This document shows positions 20,763 through 63,730 of a stretch of 64,000 bases of DNA, piece after piece. The DNA is from Leucoraja erinacea. Its lineage: Eukaryota. The notes under the pieces are model-generated. The model was not told the origin of the DNA. It saw only the letters and a list, made by a program, of their open reading frames with translations, and made no database searches. The stretch is taken from contig NC_073379.1 in assembly GCF_028641065.1 (NCBI RefSeq), positions 62,806,001 to 62,870,000 on the forward strand. The letters are read 5' to 3'. Made by a program: the position numbers and the translations under genes. Every line of letters begins with the position of its first letter. Position 1 is the first letter of the stretch.

Positions 20763-21032
20763 TTTGCTGTTGAGCTTGGAAAGGCTCCCTCTCGTGTTTG
20801 CTGTTGAAACTGCAGCCATCAGTTCTGAATGTCCTGGCTTGTTGGTACGCAAAAACTCCTTGTCATGGCAGTTAAATTCTTTGATCAGCATCAGTCAATC
20901 CAAGGACCCATCTAGGTCCTTGTTAGGTTCAGTCATAACTCAACAGTTGTGGAGAGGTTGTGTAAAAATGTCTTGTGCTTGTTTCCAGTGATCGTTTTTT
21001 CAGCTGGAGCTATGACATCAATTAGTGCTGGT

Positions 21033-21175
21033 AGACAAAAAGGTTCAAGTCTGAAGAAAGGTTTTGGCCCAAAATGTTGCCTATTTCCTTCGCTCCATAG
21101 ATGCTGCCTCACCCGCTGAGTTTCTCCAGCATTTTTGTCTACCTTCGATTTTCCAGCATCTGCAGTTCCTTCTTA
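21033..21175 (+). mobile_element. Penelope-tail mini-element with 16-bp TSD
   Basis: ATCAATTAGTGCTGGT at 21017-21032 and 21176-21191. Confidence 0.85.
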
Positions 21176-21540
21176 ATCAATTAGTGCTGGTTGATTTCAA
21201 CAGGTTTTATTTATCCAGTCACGTCATGTGTACTCCTTGACAAAATCTGCATAAATTAACCACCAATAACTGCCTCATTAATTCGGAGACAATTCAACAT
21301 CAACTGCATAAGCCACTCCAGAATCATGATTATCATTACAGATATAGCAATTCCGGATTCACATTGCACATGAAATTACATGATTTACAAGAACTAATGG
21401 GTGGAATTAATAAGATTTGCAATTCAAATAGAGAATCATGGCACGTGGCGCAGAAAGAGATGCTTTGGCCCATCAAAGTGGTGCTGACTCAGTAAAGTAG
21501 ACCTCACTAATCTGCTCTTTCCCCACAATCCAACATGTTT

Positions 21541-23071: not shown

Positions 23072-23074
23072 TTA

Positions 23075-27377: not shown

Positions 27378-27399
27378 GTGAGTGGTGGCGGTGGCACTG

Positions 27400-28375
27400 G
27401 GGGGGCCACGGGCACACACACACGGGCACACACACACACACACACACACACGGGGTTAGTGGACACGGACACACACGGGGACACACACACGGGGACACTA
27501 TAGTGTAGACGCACACAGGGACATATTGTGTATATTATATAGTGGACACACACACAGTGTAGTCTAGTACAGTGTGGACACACAGGGTAGTCTATTATAT
27601 AGTAGACACACACACACACACGGGGGGTGGATACATCCCACACACGCACACACGGGGACACACACACGGGGACACGGGGACACGCACACACACGGGGACA
27701 CACACACACACACACGGGACACACACACACGGGGACACGGACACACACACACACGGACACGGGCACACACACAGGGGGGGGGGGCACACACACGGGGACA
27801 CACACACGGGGACACACACACACACACACGGGCACACCACACACTTGGGACACGGGCACACACACACGCCTAGGGCACACACACGGACACTGGGGGGGGG
27901 GAGGCACACACGGGCACACACACACACACGGGGACACGGACACACGGGTACTAGGGGGGGACACACACACACACGGGGGGGACACACACGGGGACACGGG
28001 GGAGTTCACGTGGACTGGGGGGGGTGGACACGCGGGGGGGCACACGCACACGGGGGGACACACACGCCTAGACACGGGGGGGGGGGAGGAAGCAACAAAT
28101 GGTAGAAGGGATGGTGTCAAGGGGGGGGGGGGACCAGTGGCGAGTTCGTGAGGGTCTGGGTGGGAGGGGAGGCGACAAGGGGGGGGGGGGGGTAGAGGGA
28201 TCTAGAGAGAAGGGAGAGTACGGGGATCCAGACGGCGGGGGGAGTGAGGGACTGGAGGGAGGAAGGTGGTGGAAGGGGCCGAAGGGAGTGAGCTGGAGGA
28301 TGGGAGATTGGAGGGGGGGAAGTGACAGGGACTGGAGGAACGGAAGGGGGTAGAGGGGACCCAAGATGATGGTGG
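27400..28375. repeat. Compound G3-4(AC)n low-complexity array followed by a G-rich tract
   Basis: Recurrent GGGGACACACAC-type units to about 28090, then G-run-rich sequence. Confidence 0.9.
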
Positions 28376-29731: not shown

Positions 29732-29733
29732 AT

Positions 29734-30331
29734 AGGAGCAGGGAGGTTTTACTGCAGTTGTACAGGGTCTTGGTGAGACCACACCTGGAGTATTGCGTAC
29801 AGTTTTGGTCTCCTAATCTGAGGAAGGACATTCTTGCCATAGACGGAGTACAGAGAAGGTTCACCAGACTGATTCCTGGGATGTCAGGACTTTCATATGA
29901 AGAAAGACTGGATAGACTTGGCTTGTACTCGCTAGAATTTAGAAGATTGAGGGGGGATCTTATAGAAACGTACAAAATTCTTAAGGGGTTGGACAGGCTA
30001 GATGCAAGAAGATTGTTCCCGATGTTGGGGAAGTCCAGAACAAGGGGTCACAGTTTAAGGTTAAGGGGGAAATCTTTTAGGACCGAGATGAGAAAAACGT
30101 TTTTCACACAGTGGTGAATCTCTGAAATTCTCTGCCACAGAAGATAGTTGAAGCCAGTTCATTGGCTATATTTAAGAGGGAGTTAGATGTGGCCCTTGTG
30201 GCTAAAGGGATCAGGGGGTATGGAGAGAAGGCAGGTACAGGATACGAAGTTGGATGATCAGCCATGATCATATTGAATGGCAGTGCAGGCTCGAAGGGGA
30301 CTACTCCTGCACCTATTTTCTATGTTTCTAT
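29734..30331 (+). mobile_element. CR1 LINE 3' part
   Basis: LYRVLVRPHLEYCVQFWSP...RTRGHSL peptide plus CR1 tail. Confidence 0.95.
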
Positions 30332-30379: not shown

Positions 30380-31560
30380 GTCATGGAGCTCTACAGCACA
30401 GAACAGCAAAGATGGATTATCTTGCCCATACTGATCAATGTAGCATACTGGGCTAGTCCCATTTGCCAGTATTTCACCTATAACCCTCTAAACACTATAC
30501 ACAATCTAAATGAGATTAAAAAAAAATGTGATTGTATCTGATCTGATTGCTTCCATAACTTTACCTGACAACACATTCCAGATGCAAATGACACTCTGAG
30601 TGGAAAACATTGCCTCTGAGGTCCCTCTTAAATCTCCCTATTCATCTTAAGCCTCTGCCCTCTAGTTTTAGAATTATCTACCCTGTGTAAAAAAGACTGA
30701 ATGGTCACTTTACTGATACCCTCGTGATCTTGCACATCTCTATTAGGTCACCCCTCAGCTTCTACACTCCAAAGAAAAAAGTTCCAGCCTATCCAACCCT
30801 TCCCAGTAACTCAAGCCCACAAGCTCAGGTAATATCCTGGTGAGCAAAACACAGAGTGCTGGAGTTGCTCTACAGGTCAGGTCGTATCTGTGGAAGGAAT
30901 GGATTGGCAAAGTTATGGGCTGGGACCCGTGACTAGACCTGCTGGATTACTCCAGCACTTTGTGTTTTGCTTGAGATTCCAGCATCTGCAATTCCTTGTG
31001 TGCAACATCCTGGTTAATCTCTTCTGCACCCATTCCAACTTAATGATATCCTTTCTGTACCTGAGTGACCAGAACCTCACATAGTACTCCCACATGTGGC
31101 CACACTAACTACTTGTGGTGTGCCAACTTTTACGCCCAAAGTTTCTTCCCAATGAAAGCAAACATGCCAAATGCTGCATTCGCCACACCTGAGTTGCCAC
31201 TTTCAGAGAACAATGACCCTGTACTCTCAAATCTCTCTGTCTGCAACACTCTCATGGGCATTTGCTGTGTGTCCTGACCCGGTTTGACATACTGAAGTGC
31301 AGCATCTCACACATGCCAGAGTTAAATTCCATTTGCCATTCCTTGGCCCACCTTCTGAACTGATTTGGATTCTGTTGTAAACTGAGATTCACTGTCCATT
31401 ATACCACCAATTTTGGTGTTGTGAAAATTTACTATCAATGCCCACTGGGGTGCCCTGGTCTCATCAATCCTCATAGTGACCTCTTCAAAATATTCTTGCA
31501 AATTTGTGAGACGTGATTTGCCGCATGATCGGATTCTACTCGATCTGCCAATTCTCAGCC
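30380..31560 (-). mobile_element. Old CR1 with nested Penelope-tail mini-element (30842-31001)
   Basis: YYVRFWSLRYRKDIIKLEWVQKRLTRML peptide; imperfect 13-bp TSD at 30829-30841 and 31002-31014. Confidence 0.75.
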
Positions 31561-32090: not shown

Positions 32091-32509
32091 TTTCTTATTT
32101 CAAGTCCCCATGCATTCAGATAAGGAACCTTTATTTTGTCTTTCTGTTGTTTTTCTTCCATTGTGACTATTTCTCTAACCCATCCTGGCAGTTACCCATT
32201 CCAACACTGAACTAAAAACAGAAAATGCTGAAAATTCTCAACAGGTCAGGGAGCATCTGTGGAAATAGCATCAATGTTAATCTTCATTGGAAAGATCAAT
32301 GGTTCAATGGTGCTATATTTGTGACATATGTAACTGCACAGTTAAATTCTTTTTGCATATTATACAGGCAGGCGCCGCCATGTTTTGCCGTAATTTCCAA
32401 AGTCCCGTCGGCCTGAGTGCTCTCAATGGCAGGAGCAGACAAAAGATCCAATACAGGATCTTCACCAAAAGCATTATCTCTTTCGACATGTCTGTACTGC
32501 CGTAGTTTT

Positions 32510-33985
32510 ATGCCATAGAGTGATACAGTGGGGAAATAGGCCCTTCTACCCAACTTGCTCACACCAGCAAACATGTCCCAGCCACATGTCCCACCTGCCC
32601 GCATTTGTTTTGTATCCCTCCAAACCTGTCCTATCCATGTACCTGTCTAACGATTTCTTAAATGTTGGGTTAGTCCCAGCCTCAACTCTGGCAGTTTGTT
32701 CCATACATCCACCACCCTTTGTGTGAAAAGGTTACCCCTCAGATTCCTATAAAATCTTTTCCCTTTCACCTTAAACCTATGTCCTCTGGTTCTTGATTCA
32801 CCTACTCTGGGCAAGAGACTGTGCATCTACCCAATCTATTCCTCTCATTATCTTGTACACCTCTATAAGTTCACCCCTCATCCTCCTGTGCTCCAAGAAA
32901 TAAAGCCCCAGCCTACTTAACATCTGCTTATAACTCAGACCCTCTAGCCCTGGCATCAACCTCGTAAATCGTCTCTGCTCCCTTTCCAGCTTGACAACAT
33001 CTTTCCTATAACACGGTGCCCAGAACTGAACACAATACTCTCAAAGCGGCCTCACCAACGTCATATACAACTGCAACGTGACCTACCAACCTCTATACTC
33101 AATACTCTGGCTGATGAAGGCCAATGTGCCAAAAGCCTTTTTGACCACCCAATCTACCTGCAACCACCTTCAAGGAACTATGCAACTGTACTCCGAGATC
33201 CTTCTGCTCTACAACACTATCCAGAGCCCTACCGACCTCTCTGTCCTGGGTCTCCTCCATTGCCAGAGTGAGCAACACCGGAAATTGGAGGAACAGCACC
33301 TCATATTCCGCTAAGGGAGTCTGCATCTTGTGGGCATGAACATTGAATTCTCCCAATTTTGTTAGCCCTTTCTGTCTCCTCCCCTTCCTCAGCCCTCGGG
33401 CTGTCTCCTCCCATCCCCCAGCCGTCGGGCTCCTCCTCCACCTTTTTCCTTCCTTCTCCCCGCCACCCCCTATCAGTCTGAAGAAGGGTTTTGGCCCGAA
33501 ACGTTACCTATTTCCTTCGCTCCATAGATGCCGCTGCACCCGCTGAGTTTCTCCAGCATTTTTGTGTACCTACCATTCACTATGCAGGTTTGACTTCCCA
33601 AAATGCAACCCCTCACATTTCACTGTATTAAATTCCAACACCTGGCTAATCGATGAAGATCCTGCTGCAATTTTTCACAACCATCTTCACTATCTGCAAA
33701 ACCACCCACTTTTGTATCATCTGCAAACTTGCTAATCTTGCCGTGTATGTTTTCATCCAAATCTTTGATTTAGATGACAAACAGTAATGGCCCCAGTACC
33801 AAACCCTGAGGCACATCACTAGTCTCAGGCCTCCAGTCCGAGAAGCAACCTTCCACCATCACCCTCTGCTTCCTTTCATGAAGCCAGTTTTCTATCCATT
33901 CAGCTAACTCTCCTTGAATCCCATGTGATCTAACCTTCCAGAGCAGTCTACCATGCGGAACCTTTGTCGAATGCTTTGCTGAAGT
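32510..33985 (-). mobile_element. CR1 (HER1-like tail) with nested Penelope fragment (33233-33572, + strand)
   Basis: QKDLGVQLHSSLKV peptide; tail matches the V-SINE tail; insert encodes DLSVLGLLHCQSEQHRKLEEQHLIFR and a hammerhead-like core at 33478. Confidence 0.85.
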
Positions 33986-34534: not shown

Positions 34535-37500
34535 GTAAGACCTTGATGTCACTAGAAACAAATAGGTGAATCAATCTATCCAGTTTTATTCCAGAAATCA
34601 AACGTATATGCTCCCACATTTAGAGCTAATCTTCAAAATAATATCTCTACACAGAAAAATGCCAGCTGTTTTCATGAACATAAAGTATCAAAAAAATGAA
34701 GTGTCCTGAAAAAGCCTCAATAGTTGCAGCAGTGGCACTAGAGGTCAGGAATACAAACACACAACGCCTTTTATTTTAAAGGCATATTCCCATTCTTCAA
34801 CTACTATTGCCATTGTCTAGTTCTTCAATTACTCACCAGTTTCCTGCTCAAAATATACCTAATTCCTAAATCATCACATCATTCTCCGACATTTCCATGA
34901 TCCCACCACTAGTCACATCTTTCCATTCTGCTTTTTATAGAGACCACTCCATCTGCAACTCCTTGGTTCACTCCATCTCACACAAACCAGCCCCTCCCCA
35001 GGTCCTTTTTACTCCAACAGTAGGAGATGTTATACCTGTCATCATACCTACTCCTTCACATCCATCCAGGGACCTCAGCTGTCCTTCCAGTTGAGACAGA
35101 GGTTCACTTGCACCTCAGATAGATACAAAATTCTGGAGTAACTCAGCGGGTCAGGCAGCATCTCTGAAGAAAATCGATGGGTGCTGTCTGAGGAAGGGTC
35201 CCAATCTGAAACGTCACCTATCCATTTTGCTGCCTGACCACCTGAGTTACTCCAGCATTTTGTCTACCTGTGGTATAAACCAGCATCTGCAGTTCCTTTT
35301 TATTTCACGTGCACCACATCTAACTCGTCTACTGCATCCAGTGTTCCCAATGTAGCCTCCTGTACATTGGTGAAACTCTGTGACTGTTTCATGATACATC
35401 AAGCATACGGCATTTCCTGGTTGCTCTCTAAGGCCCAGCATTGAAGTCAGTATGGGAATGGGGAGAGAAGTTAAACTTTTAATTCTGGGTGTCCTCCATT
35501 GCCAGAATGAGGCCACACGCAAACTGGTTGAACAGCGTCCTTGTATTCCGCTTGGGTAACGTACAACCCAAAAGAAAACATTGCATTCTCCAATTTTAGA
35601 TAACCCGCAACACCCTTCTTTGGGCCATGTCAGAGCTTGCGCTTCTCATGAGCCTCTTTCCTTGCTTCATCCTATCCAATGAGTATTATCAGGTTTTTTT
35701 TTAATGCACCTTCACTTTGCTATAATCTTGTATAGATGACATGTTGTAATAACTGGCCACAATAATTCATAGATTGAGATAAATCAGTCGTTAATGCTTT
35801 ATTTCAAAAAATGTAATGTTGAAATTTGTAATTAGATTTTTTACAGCAATTACAGGCATCTGCATTAATGTCCTGTTATTTTGATTGGGTTTTGTCACAG
35901 ATGAACCTGGGAAACACAATTCAAAGTTCAAATTTCAAAAGTTGGCGAACAAGGCAAAGTTTCATGGCAAGAATTTGGCAAACCCGTGTGGAAAGATGGA
36001 AACATTTAAGGGAGAAAAGCAAGCTGCAAGAAAAAGGAAACAATTCGGTGGAAATGAAGGTGGTACGTAGCTTTTAGTTTAAGAAAAATGTAAGCTTCAT
36101 TTTTTCACATTTTAAGCAGTGTGCAAAAGTAATCATGGAAATTATTGCTTGGATTTCTGATAAATTTAAGCCATTTGTCTAATCTACATGTAATATGATC
36201 GTAGCTACAATTTATCATTAGGTAAGTCAAATTTTCTTCATCATTTTAGGCAATGTTTTAATATTCTATATCAATCCGTGCGGTGGCCGTGTTTCTAGAA
36301 AACAAGCTGTACAAGCTACAGGTTAAAACAAACATTTGTGTTGATTTATTTACTTTTCTTTCATACAAATTCCATGAGAGTGAATATTATTGTATCTCAA
36401 ATTTCATGATAGTGATTTGTTAATTCTATAGAGGCGTATTTCTGTAACCCAAATGGCTATAATGGTTCATCTGCGATAAAATGTGAGAACAGATTCAGAT
36501 TCATGAAATCTAATCATTTGGTTACAGTAAATTGCAATGTTTAATGCTGATTTGACATAAAGTAATCAGATTTTTGCCCTTTTGATTTTTTCAATATTTT
36601 GATGCATTTGGATTGATAGTTTTGCTTCAATATAGACAATAGACAATAGGTGCAAGAGTAAGCCATTTGGCCCTTCGAGCCAGCATCGCCATTCATTGTG
36701 ATCATGGCTGATCATCCACATTCAGTACAGCGTTCCTGCCTTCTCACCATATCCCCTGACTCCGCTATCTTTAATAGCTCTATCTAACTCACTCATGAAA
36801 GCATCCAGAGAATTAGCCTCCACTGCCTTTTGAGGCAAAGAATTCCACAGATTCACAACTTTCTGGGTGAAAAGGTTTTTCCTCGTCTCTGTTCCAAATG
36901 GTCTACCCCTTATTCTTAAACTGTGGCCTCTGGATCTGGATCAACATCGGGATCATGTTTCCTGCCTCTAGCGTGTCCAATCACTTTAATAATCTTATAT
37001 GTTTCAATAAGATCACCCCTCATTCTTCTTAATTCCATACAAGCCCAGCCGCTCCATTCTATCAACATATGACAGTCCCGCCATCCCGGGAATTAACCTT
37101 GTGAACCTACTCTGCACCCCAGCTATAGCAAGAATGTCCTTCCTCAAATTTGGAGACCAAAACTGCACACAATACTCCAGTTGTGGTCTCACTAGGGCCC
37201 TGTACAACTGCAGAAGGACCTCTTTGCTCTTGTACTCAACTCCTCTTGAAGGCTAACATGCCATTAGCTTTCTTCACTGCCTGCTGTACCTGCATGCTTA
37301 CTTTCATTGAGTGATGAAGACGGACCTCCAGATCTCTTTGTACTTCCCCTTTTCCCAACCTGACACCATTCAGTTAATAATCTGCCTAACTGTTTTTGCC
37401 ACCAAAGTGGATAACCTCACATTTATCTACATTAAACTGCATCTGCTATGCATCCGCCCACTCGCCCAACCTTTCCAAGTCACTCTGCATCCTCATAGCA

Positions 37501-46500: not shown

Positions 46501-49500
46501 AAATAATAACTTCTATATTCAGTTTTATTCTGAATCTGATTAAGAAATATATATTTTGGTCCGTTTTATTACAACATTGTGATTTTATCTTTATTAGTCT
46601 TCTTTTTGTCCAACATTGGAAAAAGTTCTTGAGTCTAATCCTGATAAGCGAGAAGGAATAATGGGAGAAATTAAAGAGATCCTCACACCTATGGTACAAA
46701 AGTAAGATGACTATTAATGATTTTACATTATTATGTTATTTAAATGTCATTGAAATCAGTGACCCATCTGTATTGCTTTGCAAAATAATATTGTAACATA
46801 TTAACGATGCAAGTGAAATTACTTACTGACATTTGCTGATTTAATCCTGTTGACCAGCTGATCCAATTTTACCTTGTCTGGTGTGAAGGTTAAAAAATAT
46901 CTAGCTAATAGGGTCATAAGTGATAGGAGCAGAACGGGGCCATTCGGCCCATCAAGTCTACTCCGCCATTCAATCATGGCTGGTCTATCTCTCCCTCCTA
47001 AGTCCACGCTCCCTTCTCCTGCCTTTAATCCTGCCTTCTTTCCTTAACCCTTGACCCCCGTACTAATCAAGAATCTATCTCTGCGTTAAAAATATCCTTT
47101 GACTTGGCCTCCACAGCCTTCTGTGGCAAAGAATTCCACAGATTCACCACCCTCTGACTAAAGAAATTCCTCCTCATCTCCTTCCTAAAGGAACATCCTT
47201 TAATTTTGAGGCTATGATCTCTGGTGGAAACATCCTCTCCACATCCATTCTATCCAAGCATAATGTCCTTTGGACATAAAAAGGTTAAGGAAAAGGGAAA
47301 TCCAGGAGTGCTCATTTCTATAACGTTTGGCTCTTCTGTATGTTGTAACCATCTATTTTTAGAGTTCTATTTCATGCTTTATTAAGCTAATAAGGAAATA
47401 TGGCAATATAAGCCTATAAGTAAAATAAATCTGACCAGTCATTTTGTTTTCCAATTTTTTCAGTTTGCTAATGTGGCCAGTAATCGGACACACTCTATCA
47501 CCTTGAAAATATCGTGTCAAAATAATCGTAAAGTTGTAGAAGTTTATGACATAGAAGGGAGCTATTCAGCCATTTGTATCCGTGGTGGCCAAAATACCTT
47601 AATGCACTTTCCAACTCCTTGAACACAGGAAGTGCTTAGCTAAGTGTTTTACTTGGTGTTGTGTATGTGACATCTTTGTAAGTGTCTTTTGCAAAATGTG
47701 ATTTCTCAGTTCTTTTCCTGATACAAATTCATTTGTATTTTACTTATTTGCTANNNNNNNNNNNNNNNNNNNNNNNNNNNNNNNNNNNNNNNNNNNNNNN
47801 NNNNNNNNNNNNNNNNNNNNNNNNNNNNNNNNNNNNNNNNNNNNNNNNNNNNNNNNNNNNNNNNNNNNNNNNNNNNNNNNNNNNNNNNNNNNNNNNNNNN
47901 NNNNNNNNNNNNCTCTCAACCCGAAACGCCACCCATTCCTTCTCTCCAGAGATGTTGCCTGTTCTGCTGAGTTACTCCAGTTTTTTGTGTCTATCTTCGG
48001 TTTAGACCAGCATGTGCTGTTCCTTCTTACACATAACCTTTCCCCTGATTGGTTAACAGGCAACAAAAAGCATTTCATTGTACACCGGTAAACATGACAA
48101 TAAACTAAACTAAATGTGCCCAATATTCCATCCAAATTAGTGGCGCAGGTGTGGTTTAACCAAATCATTCTTTTTGGTGATTTCTAGAGAGGCAGTAATA
48201 AAGCACACATTGGTACACAAGGCATTTTTGGATTTCTTCACGTACAGCTCTGATAAAATGAGACTGGTAAGTGTTTTTTGCCTAACTAATCATGCAATTT
48301 TTTACGGTTACTCTGAATTTACATTTAATCTGGAAAGAGTGACCAAATTTGTTTAACATGCAATTTAAATGTGTTTTATATGACAACGTTCAATGACCCT
48401 TTGGTTTAATTTTATACAAATAAAATAATTTCAGATTGTGTTGGATTGGTTTTAATGATTTTGAAGCATCCCCCCCCCCCCCCAACCCCCCTCTGTTTCC
48501 ATCCTGAAACAGAGCACCCTGCCGTATTAAACAGTCTATGGATATATAAATAATAGAAATTCTGAGTAAATAATAGACATGTTTTAATTGTGAACTGTTC
48601 CTTAAGTAGTGTTCAGTGATGTAATATTTATGGTTGTCTTTCTATGTTACACTTTTAAAATATTTGTGTGGCAAGTGAACGTCGACCATCCCTAAAGGTG
48701 CCTGAGGAGGTGCTGTTGAGCTGTATTCTTGAATCCCTGCAGTCTTTTTGAGGATATACAACACTTAAGTTGGGAGTTCCAGTATCTTGATCCAGTGACC
48801 ATGAATGATCAGTGTTGTATTTCATTCAATATTACGTGCGATTAGCGAGTGCCTGCCACATTTGTCCTGGGCAGGAGAAGCATCGTGTGCAAAGAATCCT
48901 TGCATTTGTTTGGATGATGTCTCCTTCGCCCTTTCAGAACGTCCCAAAGTGCTTTACAGCCATTAAACAATACTTACTGTTGCAAGGAAATAAATACAGC
49001 CAGCGACTTAGATGAAATAAACTCTCACAGGCAGTAATGTACATAAAATCTTTTGTTTTAAGGACCATTAATTGTGATTTAATTTTTTTGTCCAAAAAAT
49101 AGTGCCTTCAATGTGCTGCACTGGATTGTCAGCTGAGGCCTTTGTATTAAAATCTCTGAAGTGAAACTGTAATGAGAATATTCCTATATTATAATAGTGA
49201 CTGCGCTTAAAGGGTCATTGTTATAAAGAAAGGCAAGTCCCTCGGGACATACTGATAGGGATATGAACGGCACAATATTAATGCAAAGTTGTCTTTTCTA
49301 CCTGGGCGAGTGCCAGCTGTCACACCACAAGTTTGCAGAGTTGCTGCAATGGATATTGTCAATAATAGCCAACTATAGCCCTTTTCAAATAGAGACTGTT
49401 TCATTACACTCGTGGTTTGTACCCAGTACATTGTGAAAAGCTTTGAGGAGTGAGACAAGTTACTCATCACACAATACTTAGTCAACTGATGTGGGTGAGG

Positions 49501-55500: not shown

Positions 55501-58500
55501 AGCTTACACCCAGTGATATGAACATTGAATTGTCTAATTTTAAGTAATTTATACCTATACTTCCCTCCCCTACCCTTTTTGCCCATTCCTCCACCCTACT
55601 CGTTTAACCACATTTAACCACTTGAGATCACACCTTTTCTAGCCAACAATGGGCCTACCAGGACCCCACGCTGCCCAACCTAATCGGTCCTGGTCTTTTC
55701 TCACCTCCGGCTCTTCACCCTCCCAACCCCTACTTTCCATCTGAAGAAGGATCCCGACCTGAACTGTCACCTATTTACCTCCAGAAATGCTGCCTGACCC
55801 GCTGAGTTGCTCCACACTTTGTGTCCACCATTTACAACTAGATTGCTTCCATTCCAACTGCTTGATTGCCAGTAGGTTGACTTCAAAATGTGCAGCTGCC
55901 CAACCAGAGGAATTTCTACCATATTAGTATTAGATTAGATTAATATTAGATTCCTTTATTGTCATTCAGACCTTTCGGTCTGAACGAAATTATGTTGCCT
56001 GCAGTCATACACAGAACGAATAAAAACAAAACATACAATAAACACAAATTAAACATCCACCACAGTGAGTTCACCAAGCACATCCTCACTGTGATGGAGG
56101 CAAAGTCTTAGTCTCCATCTCTTCCCTCCTTGTTCTCCCTCTGCGCTGAGGCGATCGATCCAGGCCGGAGATGCCGCCCTCCAGTCCAGCGGACCTCCGT
56201 GGTGATGTCGCTGCCGCCGAAAGCCGGAACGCCGTCTACGCTTTGAAAATATTTGAAAAATATATATACAGTAGATAATCTGCACACATTGAGGCAATGT
56301 AGCCCATCTTGTTTGTGCTGATGGAAGTAGTAGTTCCCAACCTCTTCCTCCTTTTAGCACTGGATCCATATGGTTTATGGCTCTCCAAGTGCACATTGTT
56401 ATACTTCTAAAATGTGATGAGGGTTTCTGCCACCATTACCCTTTCAGGCAGTGAATTCCAGACCCCTGTCACATTGTGGGTTAAAAACATTATCCTTGTC
56501 TCTCCATGGAACTAGTGTAGATGGGACATGTTGGCTGGCGAGGGCTAGTTGCGCCAAAGGGTTTGTTTCCATTCTGTATGTCTTTATGATTATCCACGAA
56601 TTACTTTAAACACCTAATCTGTTTTTGATTCCTCAGCCAAGGGAATTACATGCTTCCTACCTATTCTACCCATTCTACTTAATGCCTTAATACTTCTGGA
56701 AGATTTATGGAGGTCTATGGCAAAATGTCTTTAAAAACAGCTTTCAATGTAAAAGTCTTTGAATTTGTCCAAATTGACTGATTTAGACCTCCTTTCTGTC
56801 TTTCGATCATTAAATACTTGTGGGAATTTGCTGCACGTCAATGAGAACCATCAACATTTCAATATTTTGGTTGAAATACCCTTTCATGACATCTAAACGT
56901 GCCTGTTTTCTAGTGGGAGCATCATTGGGAACAAGGGATCTGGTAGTCACAGTCACCCAATTCACCGTCAACCCAGTCTTATATCTTGCAAAACACTACT
57001 AAATTAATTAGCTGCTGATTTCACGAAAACGTAATTCCAAATCTGTTAATGTCCCTGGGCTGTACTTTAAGGCACCATTTCATATTTATGGAGCAGTTTG
57101 GGAGCTATCAGCAGTGAATCTAGTGTGACATATTGTAAACAGGAAAAATATAAAATGAAGGATAAATTAAACGGGATGACTGAAATAATGCAGCAATTTA
57201 GTGACTAGGTTTGTTTTCTGTTACATTGTTTAAATGTAATGCTTGCAATATAAATCTGAATCATTTAGTGCCATTTGGTGTCCTAAAACTGTCAATTTAC
57301 AGGAGATCGTCAGTTCCTTGCCTAACCTGATCAACAATAAATATGGCAAGAAGGTGCTGCTTTATCTGCTAAGCCCAAGGGACCCTGCACATAGCGTGCC
57401 AGAAATTATCAAGCTTCTACAACAAGGAGATGGCAATGTTCACAGGTTAGAAATATTTACATATTTAAATGACAGCACCTACTGTGACGTGGAAACCTTT
57501 TTGATCTGTTGTTTTTAAATGAAAACATAAGAAGCATTCCTGGAGAACATGAATAAGACCCTTTTTCAGATTGATTGTGGGTGAGAGGAAAAAAAGCTAG
57601 AAGTGTCAACATCTGCAGTTCCTTGTTTCGACAATCAAAATCTAGGGTTTAGATTTATTGGAAAGTTGTGAGAGTGAATGAGCAGCTCAAAATGTAAGCA
57701 AGCGCAAGATCAGGGAGTCATACAGCACAATGCTGGCCTTTCAGCTAACCAAGATTGCACTGGCCATCACACACCCATTTACATTAATCCCACTCTCTCT
57801 ACCACCATCATCAATAGACTGTGCATGTAAGGAGGGGGTGAAGGCAAAGAGGTCAGGTGTGGGAAAGATAGTAACTAAGGCTGGACATGATGAATGGTGG
57901 ATATAAAGGGGGCAAATAGTGCAATCTGGTTAAAAAGGAAGACGGGAAGTGAAATATAGAACCAAAGACAGGGATGGTAGGTAGTAGGGTACAGCGGAGA
58001 GGAGAGGAAAAAGATGGGGAACCTGGAGGTGGGTGATGAGCTGCTAGAAGAGGGCAACGGAATTGAGTGATGAGGCAGGGAAAAGTTGAATGTAAAGTGT
58101 GCGCAGAGACATGCTGGGCAGATAAGGAGACGGAAAGGTGGGGGGGGGGTATCCGAAATTGGAGAGAATTCAGTGATCATGTCATTGGGTTGCCGACTAT
58201 CCGAGCAGAGTATGAGATGCTGTTCTTCCAGTTTGCGTGTTGCTACACTCTGACAGTGGAAGAAGCTGAGAGAAACAAGGTTGGGAGGGGAATTAAAATG
58301 GCTCATAACTGGGAGCTCCGCCTGACTGGCTGACAGATAATCGTAATGGGCAGATTCATATTCGCTGCTTCAGTTCTTCAAAACATTTTTTCCCTATTTT
58401 CTGTAAATGTAATTTAAAAGAGAGGTCAATGAGACTGTCTGAATAATCTGTAATTGAGTATGAAATATGAAAAATAAGAGAGAGGGAGAGAGAGAGAGAG

Positions 58501-61500
58501 GTGTATGCTAGAGTTAATTAAATGTTCTGTAACTTGCTGTTTGATGCCTTTAAAATGTTTTGTAACAAAGTAGTCACTCTTTTATCATACAAGTAAGAAA
58601 GATACAAACATTCGTCATCGTGAGCTGCTGGAGGCCATCTCGCCACATTTGCTGCAATATTTGCAGGAGAATGCTCGTGAAATGGTGATGAACAAAGCAA
58701 CAAGTGTCATTGTGGCGGATATTCTTGGCTGTGCCATTGGTGACGTGCAGCCTTCCATGAATGCTATAGCTAATGTCGCTACGGAATCATTTGAACCTGG
58801 AGGCAGCAATGGTGAGGTACGGTACAAATATGCAACATTTGTTTCTAACTTCAGTGTGTGTGGAAACAAGCATTCAATGTGTAGAGTCATTGGGGCTGTA
58901 GTGTTTTCCCCAAAGAATAATAAGAGAGTCACAAAATGCTGGGGGAACTCAGCGGGTCAGACAGCTCTGGAGAGAAGGAATGGGTGATGTTTCGGGTCGA
59001 GACCCTTCCGATTCTAATTTGTGACGTTTCAAGATCAATTGATGCACCTTAAAGGACCTTAGAGCTGTTCTATATCTTATGAAGGATATTTTAACTGGTA
59101 ATGCAGTTATTGCTTTTCAATGTTAGAGAGAGATAATTGCTTTTTAACCTTGAGTAAATTTCACATTTGTTCTGCCATTAATCTTTTTACAATGCTCAAT
59201 CAAGTGCAGCAAAACTCTTTTCATGCAATGAGCAATGGATTAAATGATCAAAATTGCACTGACAACCAAAAGATTGTTCTTCCATTTTTTTCTGTCTAAA
59301 ATAACGGAATACTTTTCAAAATAGTGCCCAGAATAATTCCTGTGTAATTATTTAGCAGATTATGTTTTTAGATAGAGTGGATCATTGAGATTCATTTCCC
59401 TTTTAAGAAATAATTGCACTATATGTGGATCATGTCATATAAGGCATTTAAAGGAGACACACGGCTGCAGATGCTGCAATCTGTAACAAAAAATAAATTG
59501 GAAGGACACAGCGGATTGAATGGGGGTGGGAAAAGAGTCATCAATGTTTCTGGTTGAGGTCCTGCTACTGGGTCTCGATCTTAAACAGTGACCTTTCCCA
59601 CCTACAGATGTTACTTGACCTGCTGAGTTCCTCCAGCAGTTTGCTTTTTGCACTGCTTTTAAAAGCTTCTGATTGGCAAATGCATTTAGCTGATTAAGCA
59701 GCTGGTTTCATTTAATGTGAATTATGCAAATGACCTTGGAGTCCACACTCATCACTTGTGATAGCCTAATTGATTCTTGCCTATTAGTATTGTAGTAAAT
59801 TTATGTTTGATGGGGGTAAACTAGGCCTGATAAATGATACTACTAATGAACTACAAGTTGTCAAGAGTTTGAGTACAATTGAAAAGATTACTTAATGGGG
59901 CATGGCATACTTTATTCTTGTGTTGGCATTTGTCAACAGTTCCAAGATAATTATAATGGCCGGTTATTCCAATACTATTTTAAAAGTTCATGCCCTTGGT
60001 TCAAATGTTAAATATCTCTTTTATCACTTTTCAATTCATGGTTATAGTTGAAAACTGTTAGTGTCTAGGAAGATTGTTAATTGGCATACTGAAATATGAC
60101 TGGTTTCCCTTTTTGTCATTTTTAGCTCCACATGGCAGAGCACCCAGCAGGCCACCTGGTTCTTAAATGGTTAATAGAGCAGGATGTAAAAATGAAAGAA
60201 CTTGGAAAGACAGGTAGGGGAAATCACATTGATTTTAATGTATGCTGTCTGGAACTTGTTGAATCATTTTTGCACCAAACTGAAATGTTATTATTTTGGA
60301 CAGTTCATTTTCCCATTGAAAACATTTTGGATGGTGACAGATGGGAAAGGGCATTTCAAAGGATTTGTCTATAACCTTGAAGCAAGAGAGAAATTAAGTG
60401 GTAGCTATGTTCCTTCTGATCCTGTTTTACTACATATGTTGCCATCAGCTTATGTAATGAAGCTGTTTTTATTTCCTCTGTTCGCAATGTGTATCCCACA
60501 ACAAATGAACTCCTGCATTCCAGCCCGAGAAAGTGAAATTAACTTTAAAGCTATACAGCATTTATTTTTCAATGTAACACAGCTCAGTTGCAGCTATTGG
60601 GGTTTTGCCAATATAAACCACAATTCCCCAACTGCTGCATGAAGTCCAACTCCCTTAACTTATCAAGAATCCAGTACTTCCATACCCCTGAAATGTATTA
60701 ATGTTCCTTCATTTTCATGAGGTTAAAATTCCTGAAACTTCCCATCTTCATCAGAACATCTGCATGAATTCAATAAGGCAGCTTACTGCTACTTTATTTA
60801 AGGGCATTTAGGGATGGTTAACAAATGCTGGCCATGCACGTGGCATACTAATCCCATAAATTGTTAAAGGAAATCCTAATAAAACATGGGTTTGGTCAAA
60901 TGATCCCAAAATACTTCTAAAACATGTATGACAGTATATTAGAGAAATATTTAGTTTGGCCAATTCAGTCCAAGATTTTGTTTAATGTCTGTCTTAATGC
61001 CTATCCATTCTTGTCTAAATTAAGATGGTGTGAATATGGTGCATGTGTGTGATTACTCAGTACCAAGAAAAAGTTGGTAACATATGAGCATAACGGAATA
61101 CTATTTTGTAACATTAGCTGCTGCAGTATTGGATATTTTGCCTTCATTTTGAATGTTTGATTAATCTTAGGATTGCATTGTATTTACAGTTGTAATAGAC
61201 TGAGTCGTACAACACAGAAACAAGCTCATTTTTGGCTCAACTCATCCATACCTGCCATATTGCCCCTTCTTTGCTAATCCCATTAGGCCCTTTATGCCTT
61301 TTTATCCACGTACTGCCCAAATGTATTTTAAAAGGAGAGATATGGGAGGGTGGGGGGCATCGTAGACAGCTTGGACAAGGAACCGGGCACGCTGGAGGTC
61401 TCTGCCTGCATGATGTTTGACCAGGTAATCCTGCACTGCGGCATGCTCTCCCACCTCGTCCACGCTCCCTGCTACCTGAACCCCACCGTCCTGCTCACAT

Positions 61501-63730
61501 GCTCTTCCTCCACACCTGCTCGGACCTCTTCCTGGATTAGATGGTGTCTCTCCTTGCCCTGGGTCTTGCCAACCCTTGTCTTAGGGAAGTATCCCAAACC
61601 CACTCTGCCAGTTGCCATGACTCCCACCAATGCCTTTTGCCTTAGGCGTGACTCCACTGCTTTCTCCGCCCTCCGTTTCCTGACTGACATTCATAATTTT
61701 TTGGGACATTAATTCCATCAGCCCTTTAGTCTGTTGTGCTGATATGCATAATTTATCATAACTGCAATGGGTACTATTCTCCTATTGCAGATAGAAAACT
61801 GATAGAAGACCTATGTTGGTGCAAATCGTGTTGCATTATATTGGACAGTGGTCTCGTTTGAAATTGTTAGCACACGATCACCCTTACTTTAATCTTTTAG
61901 ATATGTATTTTGGAATTGGATCTAAGTATTGAAATGATAAATTTATATTAAACTCACATCAAAGGTCCATTGCTTTCCGGCAAAGCGTAGATATTTATTC
62001 TTAGTATGAAGGCAGATTTAATTGACATATCAGTGATGTAAAGATTTAAATTGTGCACAATGATATTTTGACACTTTTAGATACCTTCAGATTTCAGCCA
62101 AAATCAAATCAATTGGTTCTCTTTTGAATTGGCATTATAAAAATGTTGTTCAAGTTTTTAATTATGTGAAGGCCTGTTGATGTTGTGCCCTTATAATTGT
62201 TTGAGGATCTGTTGTAATAAGATGTAACATTCTTTACAGCAACTGAAATGTAACTGATCTAGAATTATATCAAATTTAAAAAACTAAAGTATTGAATGTT
62301 ACTTACAGAATGTTTTGCAGAAACATTAGTGGAACTTGTTGGCATTGAGAATCTACAAACATGGGCACAAGTAAACCGTGGAGCAATGGTACTTTGCAGG
62401 TAATAAGAAATACAAGTAATTGTTTCAGTACAATTAATTGTACTTTTAAGAGCATTGATAATTTATACCGTTTTCATAAAAAAGAATTGTGTACTGATTT
62501 GACTGTGATTTGACTCTTACATCATTTTGGCTAAAGATGTGCTTAGCCACAACATGCCTAGTGTCGTTCACATTAATTGCATTCTAGGAAGCAATCGATA
62601 GTGAGTATATGTGCTTAAGAAGGAACTGCAGATGCTGGAAAATCGAAGGTACACATAAATGCTGGAGAAACTCAGCGGGTGCAGCAGCATCTATGGAGCG
62701 AAATGGGCAACGTTTCGGGCCGAAACCCTTCTTCAGTAAACAGATTGAAAATTAGAGAAGTGGTCAAGGGTAGTAAAAATGCATTTATAGAAGATGTTCT
62801 CAAGGAAATTACTGAAGGATTGGAGGAATGTTGGAAGACTTGAAGTTTATAAATGCAGTTTATTGATCTGAAAGCTGTAATCTCATTGTTCTGGTCATGA
62901 TGATTGATTCTCCTGTGGTCACTGCACCAAACACTGGTTAACAATGTGATGGCAAAACCATTAACAATTTAAAAGCCACAGCTTTAGGGGACGTGAGATA
63001 ATAGGTATCCTATAGCAAGAAAGCTGCCATATGACCCCACATTTATTACATCGAACAAGTGAGAAGTGTGATAGAAACTGCGTCTTGTTTGATTAAGTAT
63101 GCTTGTTGCAACAATTGAGTGAGACGCCATCAAGAAATGCAGTTCATTAATTAGCACTGAACTGAATCATTTATCAGCCCTCCCCTTGGCTCTCTATAAC
63201 AGCTGTGTATGTTATTTACATTTTTTGTCTCATCTGCAATTCTAAAGCTAGTCATCTCCACATTTGCTTGATAATATCATAAAAATTCCTTCGTCAATTT
63301 TCAGATCCTAGGTTAAATTGTAACATTCATTTTAACCCAAAGACTACATCGTTATTTAATCACGGCACCTCACTATGTTAAGTGAATATTTGTGTAGATA
63401 GTGAATCATGTATTTCAAAAAGTTGTGTTTCTTTAAATCGTTTGCTGTATACTTAGTTTCAATCTGCAGGGATTCTGTTATTCAATTCTATTGGGGAGAA
63501 GCATTTTTTTATTTCCTCTGAGAGCAGCCTCTATTTGATATATTGCATAAGTATTTAAGATCTAATATGTATTTCATTTTTTAAGTCTTCTTCAAAGTAA
63601 CAATGAGGACGTCGCCCTCAAAGTGAAAAAAGGTTTAAAGAAGCTCATACCCAAGTTCAAGAAGATGAAAAACGTGAAAGGCGTGGAAATGCTGTTAGAA
63701 AAATTGGCTGCAAGCAATGTCAAACCCTGA
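34435..63730 (+). CDS. PUM3: Pumilio homolog 3 (Puf-A/KIAA0020), full CDS in 17 coding exons, 1917 nt, 638 aa
   Basis: All introns GT-AG with consistent phases; peptides KKPKWDDFKK, IAFSHDSARVIQC, VEYAYNDKAILEQRNMLTEELYG, AHTHDGSRVAM, AEHPAGHLVLKWLIEQD match vertebrate PUM3. Confidence 0.97.
34870..35610 (+). mobile_element. Penelope GIY-YIG fragment interrupted by a fold-back Penelope-tail mini-element (35118-35303)
   Basis: QRFTCTS coding resumes after the insert; 15-bp TSD at 35103-35117 and 35304-35318 (13/15). Confidence 0.8.
35901..36062 (+). CDS. PUM3: PUM3 exon 3
   Basis: gtcacag| DEPGKHNSKFKF...RKRKQFGGNEG |gtacgt; phase 1-1. Confidence 0.85.
36632..37830 (-). mobile_element. CR1 LINE 3' part
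   Basis: GVPQGSVLGP, FADDTK and LVRPQLEYCVQFW peptides on the minus strand plus tail. Confidence 0.95.
38048..38830 (-). mobile_element. CpG-rich non-coding retroposon with Rex1-type tail
   Basis: Hairpin 38079-38101, TGACGAATAAA, (TTGA)n on the minus strand; GC-rich body. Confidence 0.65.
39133..39268 (+). CDS. PUM3: PUM3 exon 4
   Basis: TMSKKPKWDDFKKEKKELKLNRQ...QIWESVR; AG/GT. Confidence 0.95.
39537..39846 (+). mobile_element. V-SINE (HE1-like)
   Basis: Same family as 9823-10128. Confidence 0.9.
40188..40263 (+). CDS. PUM3: PUM3 exon 5
   Basis: KDCSKEKKAELMKELQKLVHGNIKN; AG/GT. Confidence 0.95.
40978..41071 (+). CDS. PUM3: PUM3 exon 6
   Basis: IAFSHDSARVIQCYLQFGNEEQRQEVFVELK. Confidence 0.96.
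41122..41837 (+). mobile_element. Penelope-like element: inverted tail, GIY-YIG fragment, direct tail
   Basis: ORF 41304-41642 QRFTCTSPNLIYCIRCSRC..HIGETK...GMNIDF; arms about 41155-41316 and 41680-41837 are inverted copies. Confidence 0.92.
41745..41772 (+). ncRNA. Minimal hammerhead ribozyme-like core
   Basis: CUGAAGA-A-GGGU(CUCG)ACCC-GAAAC-GUU; stem I is weak. Confidence 0.55.
42296..42580 (+). mobile_element. V-SINE (HE1-like)
   Basis: Same family; B box GGTTCGATCC. Confidence 0.9.
42843..42909 (+). CDS. PUM3: PUM3 exon 7
   Basis: HLVELSKSKYGRHIVKKILMYG; |gtaagt. Confidence 0.96.
43046..44000. mobile_element. Tigger/pogo-like non-autonomous DNA transposon with internal fold-back
   Basis: Termini CAGATACTTCCCGACTTATGT / ACATACGTCGGGGAGTGCCTG|TA; inverted arms at 43314-43749. 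Confidence 0.6.
43135..43268. mobile_element. Penelope-tail mini-element with 17-bp TSD
   Basis: TCACCTTAAAACTGGGT at 43118-43134; TCACCTTAAACCTAGGT at 43269-43285. Confidence 0.75.
44008..44100 (-). mobile_element. Penelope-tail mini-element with 12-bp TSD
   Basis: GCCTGTACTTGA at 43996-44007 and 44101-44112; minus strand CTGAAGAAGGGTTTCGGCCCGAAACGTT. Confidence 0.85.
44550..44724 (+). CDS. PUM3: PUM3 exon 8
   Basis: NKQQVAEVIKSFKGEVKKLLRHSEASGIVEYAYNDKAILEQRNMLTEELYGNMFMICK. Confidence 0.97.
45600..46208 (+). mobile_element. Penelope-like element 3' part
   Basis: LIYCICCFWCGLLNIGETRRRQGDRFTEHL peptide; hammerhead-like core near 46114. Confidence 0.88.
46598..46701 (+). CDS. PUM3: PUM3 exon 9
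   Basis: SSFCPTLEKVLESNPDKREGIMGEIKEILTPMVQK. Confidence 0.93.
46912..47258 (-). mobile_element. CR1 3' end
   Basis: Reverse complement of the CR1 tail seen at 4402-4533. Confidence 0.8.
47754..47912. other. Assembly gap (159 N) in PUM3 intron 9, abutting a Penelope tail
   Basis: Run of N; the CDS is continuous across it, so no exon appears to be missing. Confidence 0.99.
48188..48266 (+). CDS. PUM3: PUM3 exon 10
   Basis: EAVIKHTLVHKAFLDFFTYSSDKMRL. Confidence 0.96.
48935..49200 (-). mobile_element. Ancient DeuSINE-like (SacSINE1/AmnSINE1-type) fragment
   Basis: GTCCCAAAGTGCTTTACAGCCA and CTGCACTGGATTGTCAGC resemble the Deu domain as recalled; not aligned. Confidence 0.5.
50608..51507 (-). 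mobile_element. CR1 LINE 3' part
   Basis: ORFs 50850-51449 (WQMQYNVDKCEVIHFG, LVRPHLDYC) plus tail. Confidence 0.95.
51600..51698 (+). CDS. PUM3: PUM3 exon 11 (99 nt, phase 0-0)
   Basis: EMIESVREAVIYMAHTHDGSRVAMQCLWHGTPK. Confidence 0.97.
51882..53054 (+). mobile_element. CR1 LINE 3' part with 295-aa open RT fragment
   Basis: SGVPQGSVLGP, FADDTK and LVRPHIEYC motifs; CR1 tail. Confidence 0.96.
53413..54113 (-). mobile_element. Tc1-like transposon, internal-deletion derivative
   Basis: About 44-bp TIRs CAGYGCCCTCCATAAT...; TA/TG flanks; inner direct repeat at 54001-54023; minus-strand transposase N-terminus from ATG 53886 with GRPRK. Confidence 0.9.
54380..54433 (+). CDS. PUM3: PUM3 exon 12
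   Basis: DRKVIVKTMKTFIEKTAT. Confidence 0.96.
55193..55273 (+). CDS. PUM3: PUM3 exon 13
   Basis: GEFSHLVLTAAFDCIDDTKLVKQIILS. Confidence 0.97.
55448..55830 (+). mobile_element. Penelope-like 3' fragment
   Basis: LEEQQLIFCLGSLHP peptide; degenerate CTGAAGAAGG core at 55741. Confidence 0.75.
55925..56240 (-). mobile_element. Truncated CpG-rich retroposon with Rex1-type tail
   Basis: Hairpin 55963-55986, TGACAATAAA, (TCTAA)n; shares TGCAGTCATACAC and CTGTGATGGA blocks with 520-1468. Confidence 0.7.
57303..57445 (+). CDS. PUM3: PUM3 exon 14
   Basis: EIVSSLPNLINNKYGKKVLLYLLSPRDPAHSVPEIIKLLQQGDGNVH. Confidence 0.97.
57870..58330 (-). mobile_element. Penelope-like 3' fragment
   Basis: HFNSP...RKLEEQHLIL peptide on the minus strand. 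Confidence 0.75.
58594..58816 (+). CDS. PUM3: PUM3 exon 15
   Basis: KKDTNIRHRELLEAISPHLLQYLQENAREMV...PGGSNGE; AAG acceptor. Confidence 0.95.
60126..60213 (+). CDS. PUM3: PUM3 exon 16
   Basis: LHMAEHPAGHLVLKWLIEQDVKMKELGKT. Confidence 0.97.
61350..61680 (-). mobile_element. HERO/R2-group (REL-endonuclease) LINE fragment
   Basis: AVESRLRQKALVGVMATGRVGLG...IQEEVR...QGAWTRW...ITW, then a frameshifted AVYD, as in the post-RT region of HERO elements. Confidence 0.7.
62309..62399 (+). CDS. PUM3: PUM3 exon 17
   Basis: CFAETLVELVGIENLQTWAQVNRGAMVLC. Confidence 0.95.
62615..62736 (-). mobile_element. Penelope-tail mini-element with hammerhead-like core
   Basis: Minus strand CTGAAGAAGGGTTTCGGCCCGAAACGTT plus tail to GTTCCTTCTTAA. 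Confidence 0.85.
63586..63730 (+). CDS. PUM3: PUM3 exon 18 coding part
   Basis: LLQSNNEDVALKVKKGLKKLIP...KGVEMLLEKLAASNVKP*. Confidence 0.95.

What the first reader, a model, noticed from the sequence alone, without database searches (positions are those of the whole stretch)
21017..62736. Swarm of 90-190 bp Penelope-tail mini-elements with a minimal hammerhead core and their own TSDs
Seen: well over a dozen copies of one tail, the best reading CUGAAGA-A-[stem II]-GAAAC-GUH (33478, 41745, and on the minus strand near 41248, 44100, 62736). Stem II varies while staying paired (GGGU-CUCG-ACCC, GGGU-UUCG-GCCC, GGGU-UUUG-GCCC), and stem III is reduced to the palindrome ACGU. Several ORF-less copies have 12-17 bp TSDs (21017/21176, 30829/31002, 35103/35304, 43118/43269, 43996/44101), and many are fold-backs of an antisense arm plus a sense arm. 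Known: Penelope-like elements carry minimal hammerheads that may cleave as dimers, and they form inverted insertions. Inference: either a tiny ribozyme-defined non-autonomous unit mobilised by Penelope RT/GIY-YIG, or extreme truncations; the 44008 and 62615 copies both stop at the CUGA box. Caveat: stem I is only about 2 bp, so activity is uncertain.
Basis: partly seen in the sequence, partly recalled or inferred. Interest (0 to 1): 0.7.

Follow-up and report, generated by a model that had tools for sequence, protein, structure and literature searches.

The report
Penelope run-off stubs and twin-primed hairpins
These 90-220-base repeats are short stubs of a very abundant Penelope-type jumping gene, likely left when its copying enzyme ran off the front end of its own RNA and, in the mirror-image copies, likely copied it from both cut DNA strands; they stop just before the ribozyme-like motif, not at its predicted cutting site.

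Summary
In detail: 26 arms lie in the window, a normal density for a family with about 1.1 million arms genome-wide, and the five TSDs are there (two exact, three decayed). The arms are the pseudo-LTR of an RT + GIY-YIG Penelope-like element (Neptune/Nematis-type linker). Their 5' ends are not random: 212 of 300 arms reaching the core stop at -10..+2 of the CUGA box (28-fold the upstream rate), with no peak at the predicted cleavage site. Copies that run on into the ORF start begin in the same zone (16 of 18), so it is likely the RNA's 5' end. All 19 TSD-bounded fold-backs pair one tailed with one tail-less arm. One junction recurs 1,646 times but faces either way (11:19) and carries several haplotypes, pointing to independent twin priming rather than a propagated unit. 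Every subfamily has endonuclease-linked copies; the only fold-back copied as a block rides in a DNA-transposon MITE. Ribozyme activity is untested and predicted weak. The architecture is published; I found no paper with the end statistics. This scan reported the same reading earlier in other genomes (unchecked notes).

The parts
21017..21191 (+). 143-bp mini (21033-21175): short tail-less inverted stub + tailed sense arm starting at -3; 16-bp exact TSD (21017-21032 / 21176-21191)
43996..44112 (-). 93-bp tail-less mini (44008-44100) stopping at the CUGA box; 12-bp exact TSD; youngest subfamily; intact core
62612..62736 (-). 125-bp tailed mini starting at the C of CUGA; intact core; no TSD found
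43118..43285 (+). 134-bp element (43135-43268): inverted tail-only arm + tail-less sense arm from position 0; 17-bp TSD with 2 mismatches
35103..35318 (+). 186-bp fold-back (35118-35303), tail-less antisense arm + tailed sense arm from -2; 15-bp TSD with 2 mismatches; inserted into an older Penelope endonuclease fragment
30829..31014 (+). 160-bp old fold-back (30842-31001), tail-less antisense arm + short tailed sense arm; weak TSD (11 bp, 1 mismatch)
15455..15696 (-).
9166..9339 (-). old fold-back, tailed antisense arm + short tail-less sense arm; no TSD found
12338..12496 (-). old fold-back pair of arms
41121..41838 (+). long fold-back: tailed inverted arm (core at 41248, minus strand) + tail-less sense arm carrying the endonuclease-coding end, pyrimidine tract and core at 41745
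33232..33572 (+). 5'-truncated copy with endonuclease end, pyrimidine tract and core at 33478 (tail-less)
20324..20760 (+). 5'-truncated tailed copy with endonuclease end; decayed core at 20638
45631..46213 (+). endonuclease fragment followed by tail-less arm, core at 46114
55729..55831 (+). tail-less arm after a pyrimidine tract, endonuclease match upstream; decayed core at 55741
47914..48033 (+). tailed arm whose 5' part runs into the masked N stretch
58922..59009 (-). tail-less arm from about +5, just after a host exon
59570..59671 (+). old decayed arm
32216..32264 (-). short old arm fragment
19682..19775 (-). very decayed arm, weakest hit (E 6e-4)
41745..41772 (+). example minimal hammerhead core: CUGAAGA, unpaired A, 4-bp stem II, GAAA, palindromic ACGU, H17; predicted cleavage after 41772; stem I only 2 bp

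Best explanation
The repeats are short insertions of the terminal repeat (pseudo-LTR) of an abundant endonuclease-bearing Penelope-like retrotransposon, most of them likely made when reverse transcription began at one of two start sites near the RNA's 5' end and ran off that end just upstream of the hammerhead-like core. Shown: the same 130-nt sequence ends the RT/GIY-YIG copies and also precedes the ORF start; arms have two 3' ends about 35 nt apart (the Penelope 'tail'); 5' ends pile up at -10..+2 of CUGA and not at the cleavage site. Inferred: the two 3' ends are the two RT start sites mapped in vitro for the anole element; the pile-up is the RNA 5' end, eroded by a few bases. Fold-backs are inferred to come from twin priming: each nicked target strand primes one cDNA, one from each start site, on the same source RNA, and the two cDNA 3' ends are joined head to head, often by annealing at palindromes in the core (stem II region, TCAG-T-CTGA). 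The hammerhead is conserved in the source elements but is likely a dead passenger in the stubs.
For: Link to RT/EN copies. Leader position: one copy with 5' pLTR + ORF start, 209 exact tail-ORF junctions. End hazard 0.054/nt at -10..+2 against 0.002-0.003 upstream and 0.0078 at the cleavage site, equal to its neighbours; only 10 of 134 solo hotspot copies have the pyrimidine tract upstream against 36 of 56 long copies, so it is not an alignment break. Arms that continue into the ORF start: 16 of 18 that reach the core begin at -9..+2. One tail per fold-back: 19 of 19 TSD-bounded, P=1.5e-6; 60 of 83 overall, 21 with none, 2 with both. Tail-less arm reaches further 5' in 22 pairs, tailed arm in 14, equal in 24: a single cDNA folding back cannot give the first class. 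Recurrent symmetric junction: 1,646 exact copies; in 30 loci the central base faces the tailed arm in 11 and the tail-less arm in 19, with several haplotypes and arms concordant within a locus (75 sites against 52.8 expected, 0 of 5000 shuffles). 79 of 91 pairs have both arms from one subfamily (19% by chance); 17 shared rare variants against a null mean of 6.9. All six subfamilies have endonuclease-linked copies.
Against: No RNA 5' end was mapped. Leader-derived arms pass the hotspot less often than all arms (2 of 18 against 88 of 300) but not significantly (P=0.11), so an RT block at the pyrimidine tract is not excluded. Ends are spread, not at one base: nested exact counts 18,893 / 15,024 / 12,631 / 9,715 at -2, -3, -4, -6; this contradicts a sharp start at the initiator-like A at -3 that I first favoured. 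End rate is also raised inside the tract (0.010/nt at -40..-10). Arm concordance could come from one source locus or later gene conversion rather than one RNA molecule. 21 of 83 fold-backs show no tail (decay or a real class; not resolved). The two oldest subfamilies have few endonuclease-linked copies (3 of 64, 4 of 58).
Confidence: 0.66

Rival explanations
1. The 5' pile-up is an RT road-block on a longer RNA: the C-rich tract ending in CAG at -4..-2 looks like a 3' splice site (bound splicing factors, or G-rich cDNA structure), so most cDNAs stop there. Twin priming would still explain the fold-backs.
For: The tract begins at about -8 in all long copies; in D. virilis the intron's 3' end maps to the 5' end of helix I (PMC4209133); end rate is 3-5-fold raised within the tract and ends are spread over several bases; two leader-derived arms reach -66 and -70.
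Against: Leader-derived arms pass in 2 of 18 against 29% overall (trend only). No spliced form was found: 0 genome-wide matches for one candidate junction, and flanks upstream of solo hotspot copies are close to background beyond -6, so no shared upstream exon.
Confidence: 0.18
2. Single minis are a non-autonomous, SINE-like family: they keep an internal promoter and both RT start sites, are transcribed themselves and are re-inserted by the Penelope protein in trans.
For: 459 of 547 arms are minis. D. virilis Penelope has an internal promoter in the pLTR (PMC2377424); pLTR sequences sufficed for mobilisation in trans in a rotifer (PMC3846280 passage). Products would look identical to run-off stubs. 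One young haplotype had 0 long and 3 mini copies (too few).
Against: Every one of six subfamilies has endonuclease-linked copies with the same diagnostic bases; four of five young haplotypes seen in minis more than once include long copies (only 34 arms passed the strict filter). No fixed 5' end and no added head sequence.
Confidence: 0.12
3. Hammerhead self-cleavage cuts the unit out of longer RNA and defines the element (retrozyme-like).
For: Core invariant across six subfamily consensuses, 11 of 11 positions against 45 of 67 downstream (P=0.028); animal retrozymes are proposed to derive from pLTRs (bioRxiv 10.64898/2026.07.22.740005).
Against: Cleavage would put 5' ends at +28; 17 of 438 arms end at +26..+30, no more than neighbours. 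Only 3 same-strand pairs within 1 kb among 90 intact cores. Stem I probability at most 0.09; a hammerhead-like dimer lies 7-19 kcal/mol above the best dimer fold; fold-backs bury the core in long hairpins. In the anole element cleavage was not needed for insertion in vitro (PMC11167929).
Confidence: 0.02
4. Fold-backs arise by snap-back self-priming of one cDNA or are copied as finished hairpin units (MITE-like).
For: Palindromes at inverted junctions were read as self-priming in PMC3846280; 12 of 83 junctions are symmetric; one fold-back recurs as a block in five sampled loci plus one chimera.
Against: That block shares flanks because it sits inside a terminal-inverted-repeat element of about 630 bp. 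The common symmetric junction faces either way, 11:19. The tail-less arm often carries 5' sequence absent from the tailed arm (22 of 60).
Confidence: 0.04

Closest known systems
EN+ Penelope-like elements, Neptune/Nematis type, with pLTR, inverted 5'-truncated copy and one-sided 30-40-bp tail (PMC8557442 and its preprint, passages; PMC3846280, passages)
   Same: [quoted passage not shown]
   Different: Here 84% of arms (459 of 547) are stubs that stop at or inside the core, about a million genome-wide; the strict one-tail rule and the 5' hotspot are measured; TSDs are about 15 bp against 8-10 bp in the rotifer passages.
Anolis Poseidon element PAc in vitro (PMC11167929, main text read)
   Same: Two RT start sites flanking the tail, both strands nicked and extended, hammerhead in the pLTR not needed for insertion, no RNA ends at the cleavage site.
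   Different: Different clade; that study saw no difference in start site between strands, whereas these genomic fold-backs pair one site with the other; it does not describe 5' run-off stubs in the text I read.
Minimal type I hammerheads of metazoan PLEs (PMC4209133; Lunse et al. 2017 seen only as a reference title)
   Same: CUGANGA, unpaired base before stem II, G10.1-C11.1, palindromic residual stem III, mostly single motifs attributed to truncated PLEs, some pairs on opposite strands 100-700 bp apart.
   Different: Stem II is 4 bp and stem I 2 bp (as in the D. virilis variant) rather than 7-8 and 4-5 bp; activity untested here.
Animal non-LTR retrozymes (PMC7229834 passages; bioRxiv 10.64898/2026.07.22.740005)
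   Same: Short, non-coding, hammerhead-bearing, pLTR-related, present in a cartilaginous fish in the preprint.
   Different: Retrozymes are tandem arrays bounded by cleavage sites; these are dispersed singles or head-to-head pairs with TSDs, and ends avoid the cleavage site.
LINE-1 twin priming (recalled, not read here)
   Same: Both target strands prime cDNA, giving an inverted part joined by microhomology within one TSD pair.
   Different: In LINE-1 the two parts are mostly non-overlapping; here both arms copy the same 50-100 nt from two fixed start sites.

Membership tests
EN+ Penelope-like element (source element) | RT domain followed by C-terminal GIY-YIG endonuclease, ending in this tail | tested here: met
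   L156: PF00078 34.8 bits, PF01541 23.4 bits (cut-off 22.6); tail follows the EN frame in most of 29 loci. Pfam found nothing in two L153 frames or four window EN fragments.
EN+ Penelope-like element (source element) | pLTR also upstream of the ORF; partial tandems | tested here: met
   L211 and L218; 209 exact tail-ORF junctions, 30 examined
EN+ Penelope-like element (source element) | Optional 30-40-bp tail at one end; inverted 5'-truncated copy; TSD | tested here: met
   two 3'-end peaks about 35 nt apart and TSDs mostly 12-17 bp; 123 head-to-head against 17 tail-to-tail pairs
Neptune/Nematis clades | CX2-5CxxC motif in the RT-EN linker | tested here: met
   C-x4-C-x2-C in L153 frame; definition from PMC8557442 passage
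Neptune/Nematis clades | RT phylogeny places it in the clade | not tested
   no tree built; Neptune versus Nematis not resolved
Minimal type I hammerhead of PLEs | Catalytic core, stem II with G10.1-C11.1, palindromic residual stem III | tested here: met
   11 of 11 core positions invariant in six subfamily consensuses; intact in 73 of 276 arms that reach C3
Minimal type I hammerhead of PLEs | Helix I of 4-5 bp | tested here: not met
   2 bp, pairing probability at most 0.09 in nine window copies; a 2-bp helix I is described for D. virilis (PMC4209133). No Rfam hammerhead hit at E<=5.
Minimal type I hammerhead of PLEs | Self-cleavage as dimer or with protein help | not testable with these tools
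   folding only; dimer fold disfavoured by 7-19 kcal/mol without stem I
Non-LTR retrozyme | Tandem arrays of hammerhead-bearing units | tested here: not met
   3 same-strand pairs within 1 kb among 90 intact cores
Non-LTR retrozyme | Unit bounded by the cleavage site; circular RNA | tested here: not met
   no 5'-end peak at +28; circular RNA not testable
Non-autonomous SINE/MITE-like family | Lineage of short copies with no ORF-linked members | tested here: inconclusive
   none at six-subfamily resolution; fine haplotypes too few, 34 arms
Non-autonomous SINE/MITE-like family | One fixed fold-back junction inherited by descent | tested here: not met
   recurrent junction in both orientations and several haplotypes; the block-copied case is a passenger in a DNA-transposon MITE

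The most novel reading that the evidence does not exclude
The 95-130-nt stub is a complete cis-acting module (transcription start, hammerhead, both RT start sites) that is transcribed from solo copies and re-inserted by the Penelope protein, making it one of the smallest self-renewing non-autonomous retroelements, with hundreds of thousands of copies able to seed RNA or hairpins in host introns.
Probability: 0.12. Interest if true: 0.68.

Novelty: new member of a known kind. Interest (0 to 1): 0.42.

Why it matters
How Penelope-like elements make their tails and inverted ends is an open question; the in vitro paper leaves second-strand steps unvalidated. A million fossil stubs give rules that an existing assay can test: one start site per strand, joining at palindromes, run-off at the RNA 5' end. 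It also warns that large counts of minimal hammerheads in such genomes are mostly dead stubs rather than working ribozymes.

Tried and rejected
Rfam scan: no hammerhead family, 8 unrelated weak hits. Sharp start at an initiator-like A at -3 (motif recalled): suggested by base composition in 79 solo copies, not borne out by nested genome-wide counts. Extra cap-derived G at 5' ends: no clear excess in 79 copies. Spliced template: 0 matches for one candidate junction, none in the loci then held. Convoy model (tail-less arm always longer): 22 against 14, P=0.05, not adopted. Post-insertion selection on the core: copies match 93.8% in the core against 91.7% downstream (P=0.0009), but copies were chosen for aligning through the core, so I do not count it. 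A-to-G editing shared by arms: 2 of 17 shared variants, not seen. RNA evidence: no RNA holder listed; laying four contig sets could not show starts and gave no clean splice joint. One search queried the wrong part of L211 and is uninformative. Orientation of the recurrent junction was read from 30 of 1,646 loci only. Lunse et al. 2017 was not held; one search opened an unrelated paper. Literature searches for prior description found none beyond the papers cited; subscription journals, Repbase/Dfam entries and all supplements were not seen.
Full report
Setting. The window lies on a 113-Mb contig of a 2.19-Gb genome, among exons of a CPL-domain gene (PF08144; PUM3-like by recall). A cartilaginous fish is my inference from recalled repeat types and was not tested. 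Positions below are counted from the C of the CUGA box (0); the predicted cleavage site is after +27.

Observation. A profile built from natural copies found 635 arms in the window plus 1.2 Mb of sampled genome, 26 of them in the window, and none in the reversed control. With 1.4 Mb the sample held 706 arms, about 1.1 million genome-wide; the window's 4.1 per 10 kb is close to the mean of 5.0. The five TSDs are present, two exact and three decayed, and I found a sixth at 15455/15684.

Identity. The arm is the end of a Penelope-like element: it follows a GIY-YIG frame in most of 29 loci, and L156 carries RT and GIY-YIG Pfam matches. The linker has C-x4-C-x2-C, the motif given for Neptune and Nematis (PMC8557442). 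First-look candidates fall from 101,548 for the endonuclease to 7,394 for the RT start and 2,186 for the N-terminal region, the usual 5' truncation. The same arm also precedes the ORF start (L211, L218; 209 exact junctions). Six subfamilies of 4-24% divergence all include endonuclease-linked copies: 3 of 64, 5 of 54, 12 of 56, 15 of 108, 9 of 36, 4 of 58.

3' ends. TSD-bounded arms end in two clusters about 35 nt apart (84 of 552 arms passed the TSD score, at about 3% chance rate against 15% observed). This is the published optional tail, which PMC11167929 equates with two RT start sites.

5' ends. Of 706 arms, 547 had a 3' end and lay at least 700 nt from a stretch edge; 159 were dropped. Of 300 reaching +3, 212 end at -10..+2 (0.054 per nt), against 0.002-0.003 upstream of -40, a 28-fold step; young arms alone give 123 of 179. 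The cleavage site shows no peak: 17 of 438 at +26..+30, 0.0078 per nt, against 0.0074 and 0.0116 on either side. The step is not an alignment break at the variable tract: 10 of 134 solo hotspot copies have a pyrimidine-rich upstream flank against 36 of 56 long copies. Of 26 arms that continue into the ORF start, and so come from the RNA's front, 18 reach the core (one read by eye past an internal deletion); 16 begin at -9..+2 and two at -66 and -70. That is the main reason to read the zone as the RNA 5' end. Against it: the difference from all arms is not significant (P=0.11), no RNA end was mapped, and nested exact counts in the youngest subfamily (18,893, 15,024, 12,631, 9,715 at -2, -3, -4, -6) show a spread, not one base. 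The tract and its AG also resemble a 3' splice site, where the D. virilis intron ends (PMC4209133), so an RT road-block stays open; no spliced copy was found.

Fold-backs. There are 123 head-to-head pairs against 17 tail-to-tail among 634 arms. After removing six MITE-associated cases, 83 had both 3' ends: 60 with one tail, 21 with none, 2 with both; all 19 with a TSD have exactly one (P=1.5e-6). The tail-less arm reaches further 5' in 22, the tailed arm in 14, neither in 24. Most junctions differ; 12 of 83 are symmetric, five at +17 and two at -1, both palindromes. The +17 junction occurs 1,646 times exactly. In the first 30 loci each has one tail (29 by pattern, one by eye), 23 have a TSD-like repeat, the central base faces the tailed arm in 11 and the other in 19, several haplotypes occur, and the two arms agree within a locus (75 sites against 52.8). 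In the sample, 79 of 91 pairs share a subfamily, and 62 young pairs share 17 rare variants against a null mean of 6.9 and maximum of 16. A single cDNA folding back would fix the orientation and could not give a tail-less arm extra 5' sequence; a propagated hairpin would have one haplotype and orientation. Two cDNAs of the same polarity can pair at their 3' ends only through palindromes, which explains the recurrent joints (inference). The one fold-back copied as a block lies inside a terminal-inverted-repeat element of about 630 bp (five loci plus one chimera).

Hammerhead. The core is invariant in six consensuses (11 of 11 against 45 of 67 downstream, P=0.028), so source elements keep it under constraint, though promoter or protein-binding roles could do the same. 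Stem II changes only on one side. In nine window copies stem I has probability at most 0.09; stem II reaches 0.57-0.72 in three short fragments and at most 0.17 in 140-nt context; a hammerhead-like dimer is 7-19 kcal/mol above the best dimer fold; three fold-backs form hairpins of -73 to -78 kcal/mol that bury the core. Only 90 of 706 arms are intact and three same-strand pairs lie within 1 kb. Rfam gave no hammerhead hit.

Comparison. It works like, and its source is, an EN+ Penelope-like element; it is not a retrozyme. The architecture is published. Papers seen: PMC4209133 parts 1-2 of 4; PMC11167929 parts 1-2 of 4; bioRxiv 10.64898/2026.07.22.740005 parts 1-3 of 5; PMC2377424 parts 2-3 of 4; passages of PMC8557442 and its preprint, PMC3846280, PMC7229834, PMC6765202; Lunse et al. 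only as a title; no supplements. Searches found no account of the 5' hotspot or the one-site-per-arm rule, but much of the Penelope literature is not in the library. Earlier notes of this scan give the same reading for other genomes; my reading was written before I opened them, they are unchecked, and I took the orientation and shared-variant tests from them.

Verdict. A real, very common feature with a known architecture. It is neither a ribozyme-defined family nor random truncation. Its value is as a fossil record that makes two steps of Penelope insertion testable. Interest 0.42.

Noticed in passing
L117:5890-6510, L116, L042, L126, L143; chimera in L095: A terminal-inverted-repeat element of about 630 bp (Harbinger-like by recalled end pattern) carries a captured Penelope fold-back and has spread it; five loci in 1.2 Mb, so perhaps several thousand genome-wide.
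   Followed up: partly
L224-L253: Many short partial tandems: 5' pLTR, 20-300 nt of ORF start, then a jump to a second pLTR copy, suggesting template switches that rebuild pLTR pairs without the ORF.
   Followed up: partly
window 35103-35318 and 30829-31014: One fold-back sits in an older Penelope endonuclease fragment; the other appears to sit in a CR1-like LINE fragment (recalled resemblance). Target preference not tested.
   Followed up: partly
window 28981-29610: Long AT-rich inverted repeat (arms of 140 and 105 nt), MITE-like; it gives spurious Rfam microRNA matches below the gathering scores.
   Followed up: no
window 23800-25227: Decayed LTR-retrotransposon pol fragments (RT RNase H Pfam matches), broken into several frames.
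   Followed up: no
window 6596-8040, 29665-30260, 36630-37760, 50660-53050: Several CR1-like LINE fragments on both strands, including an inverted pair with 633-nt arms at 50865-52778.
   Followed up: no
window 42830-42910 and 58590-58830: Exons of the host CPL-domain gene on the plus strand; the elements near them are intronic.
   Followed up: partly
L092:9000 bp stretch, arms at about 2900-3134: A fold-back whose flanks are themselves inverted for about 30 nt instead of forming a direct TSD.
   Followed up: no
window 27390-28100: Complex (CA)n/G-rich minisatellite tract.
   Followed up: no
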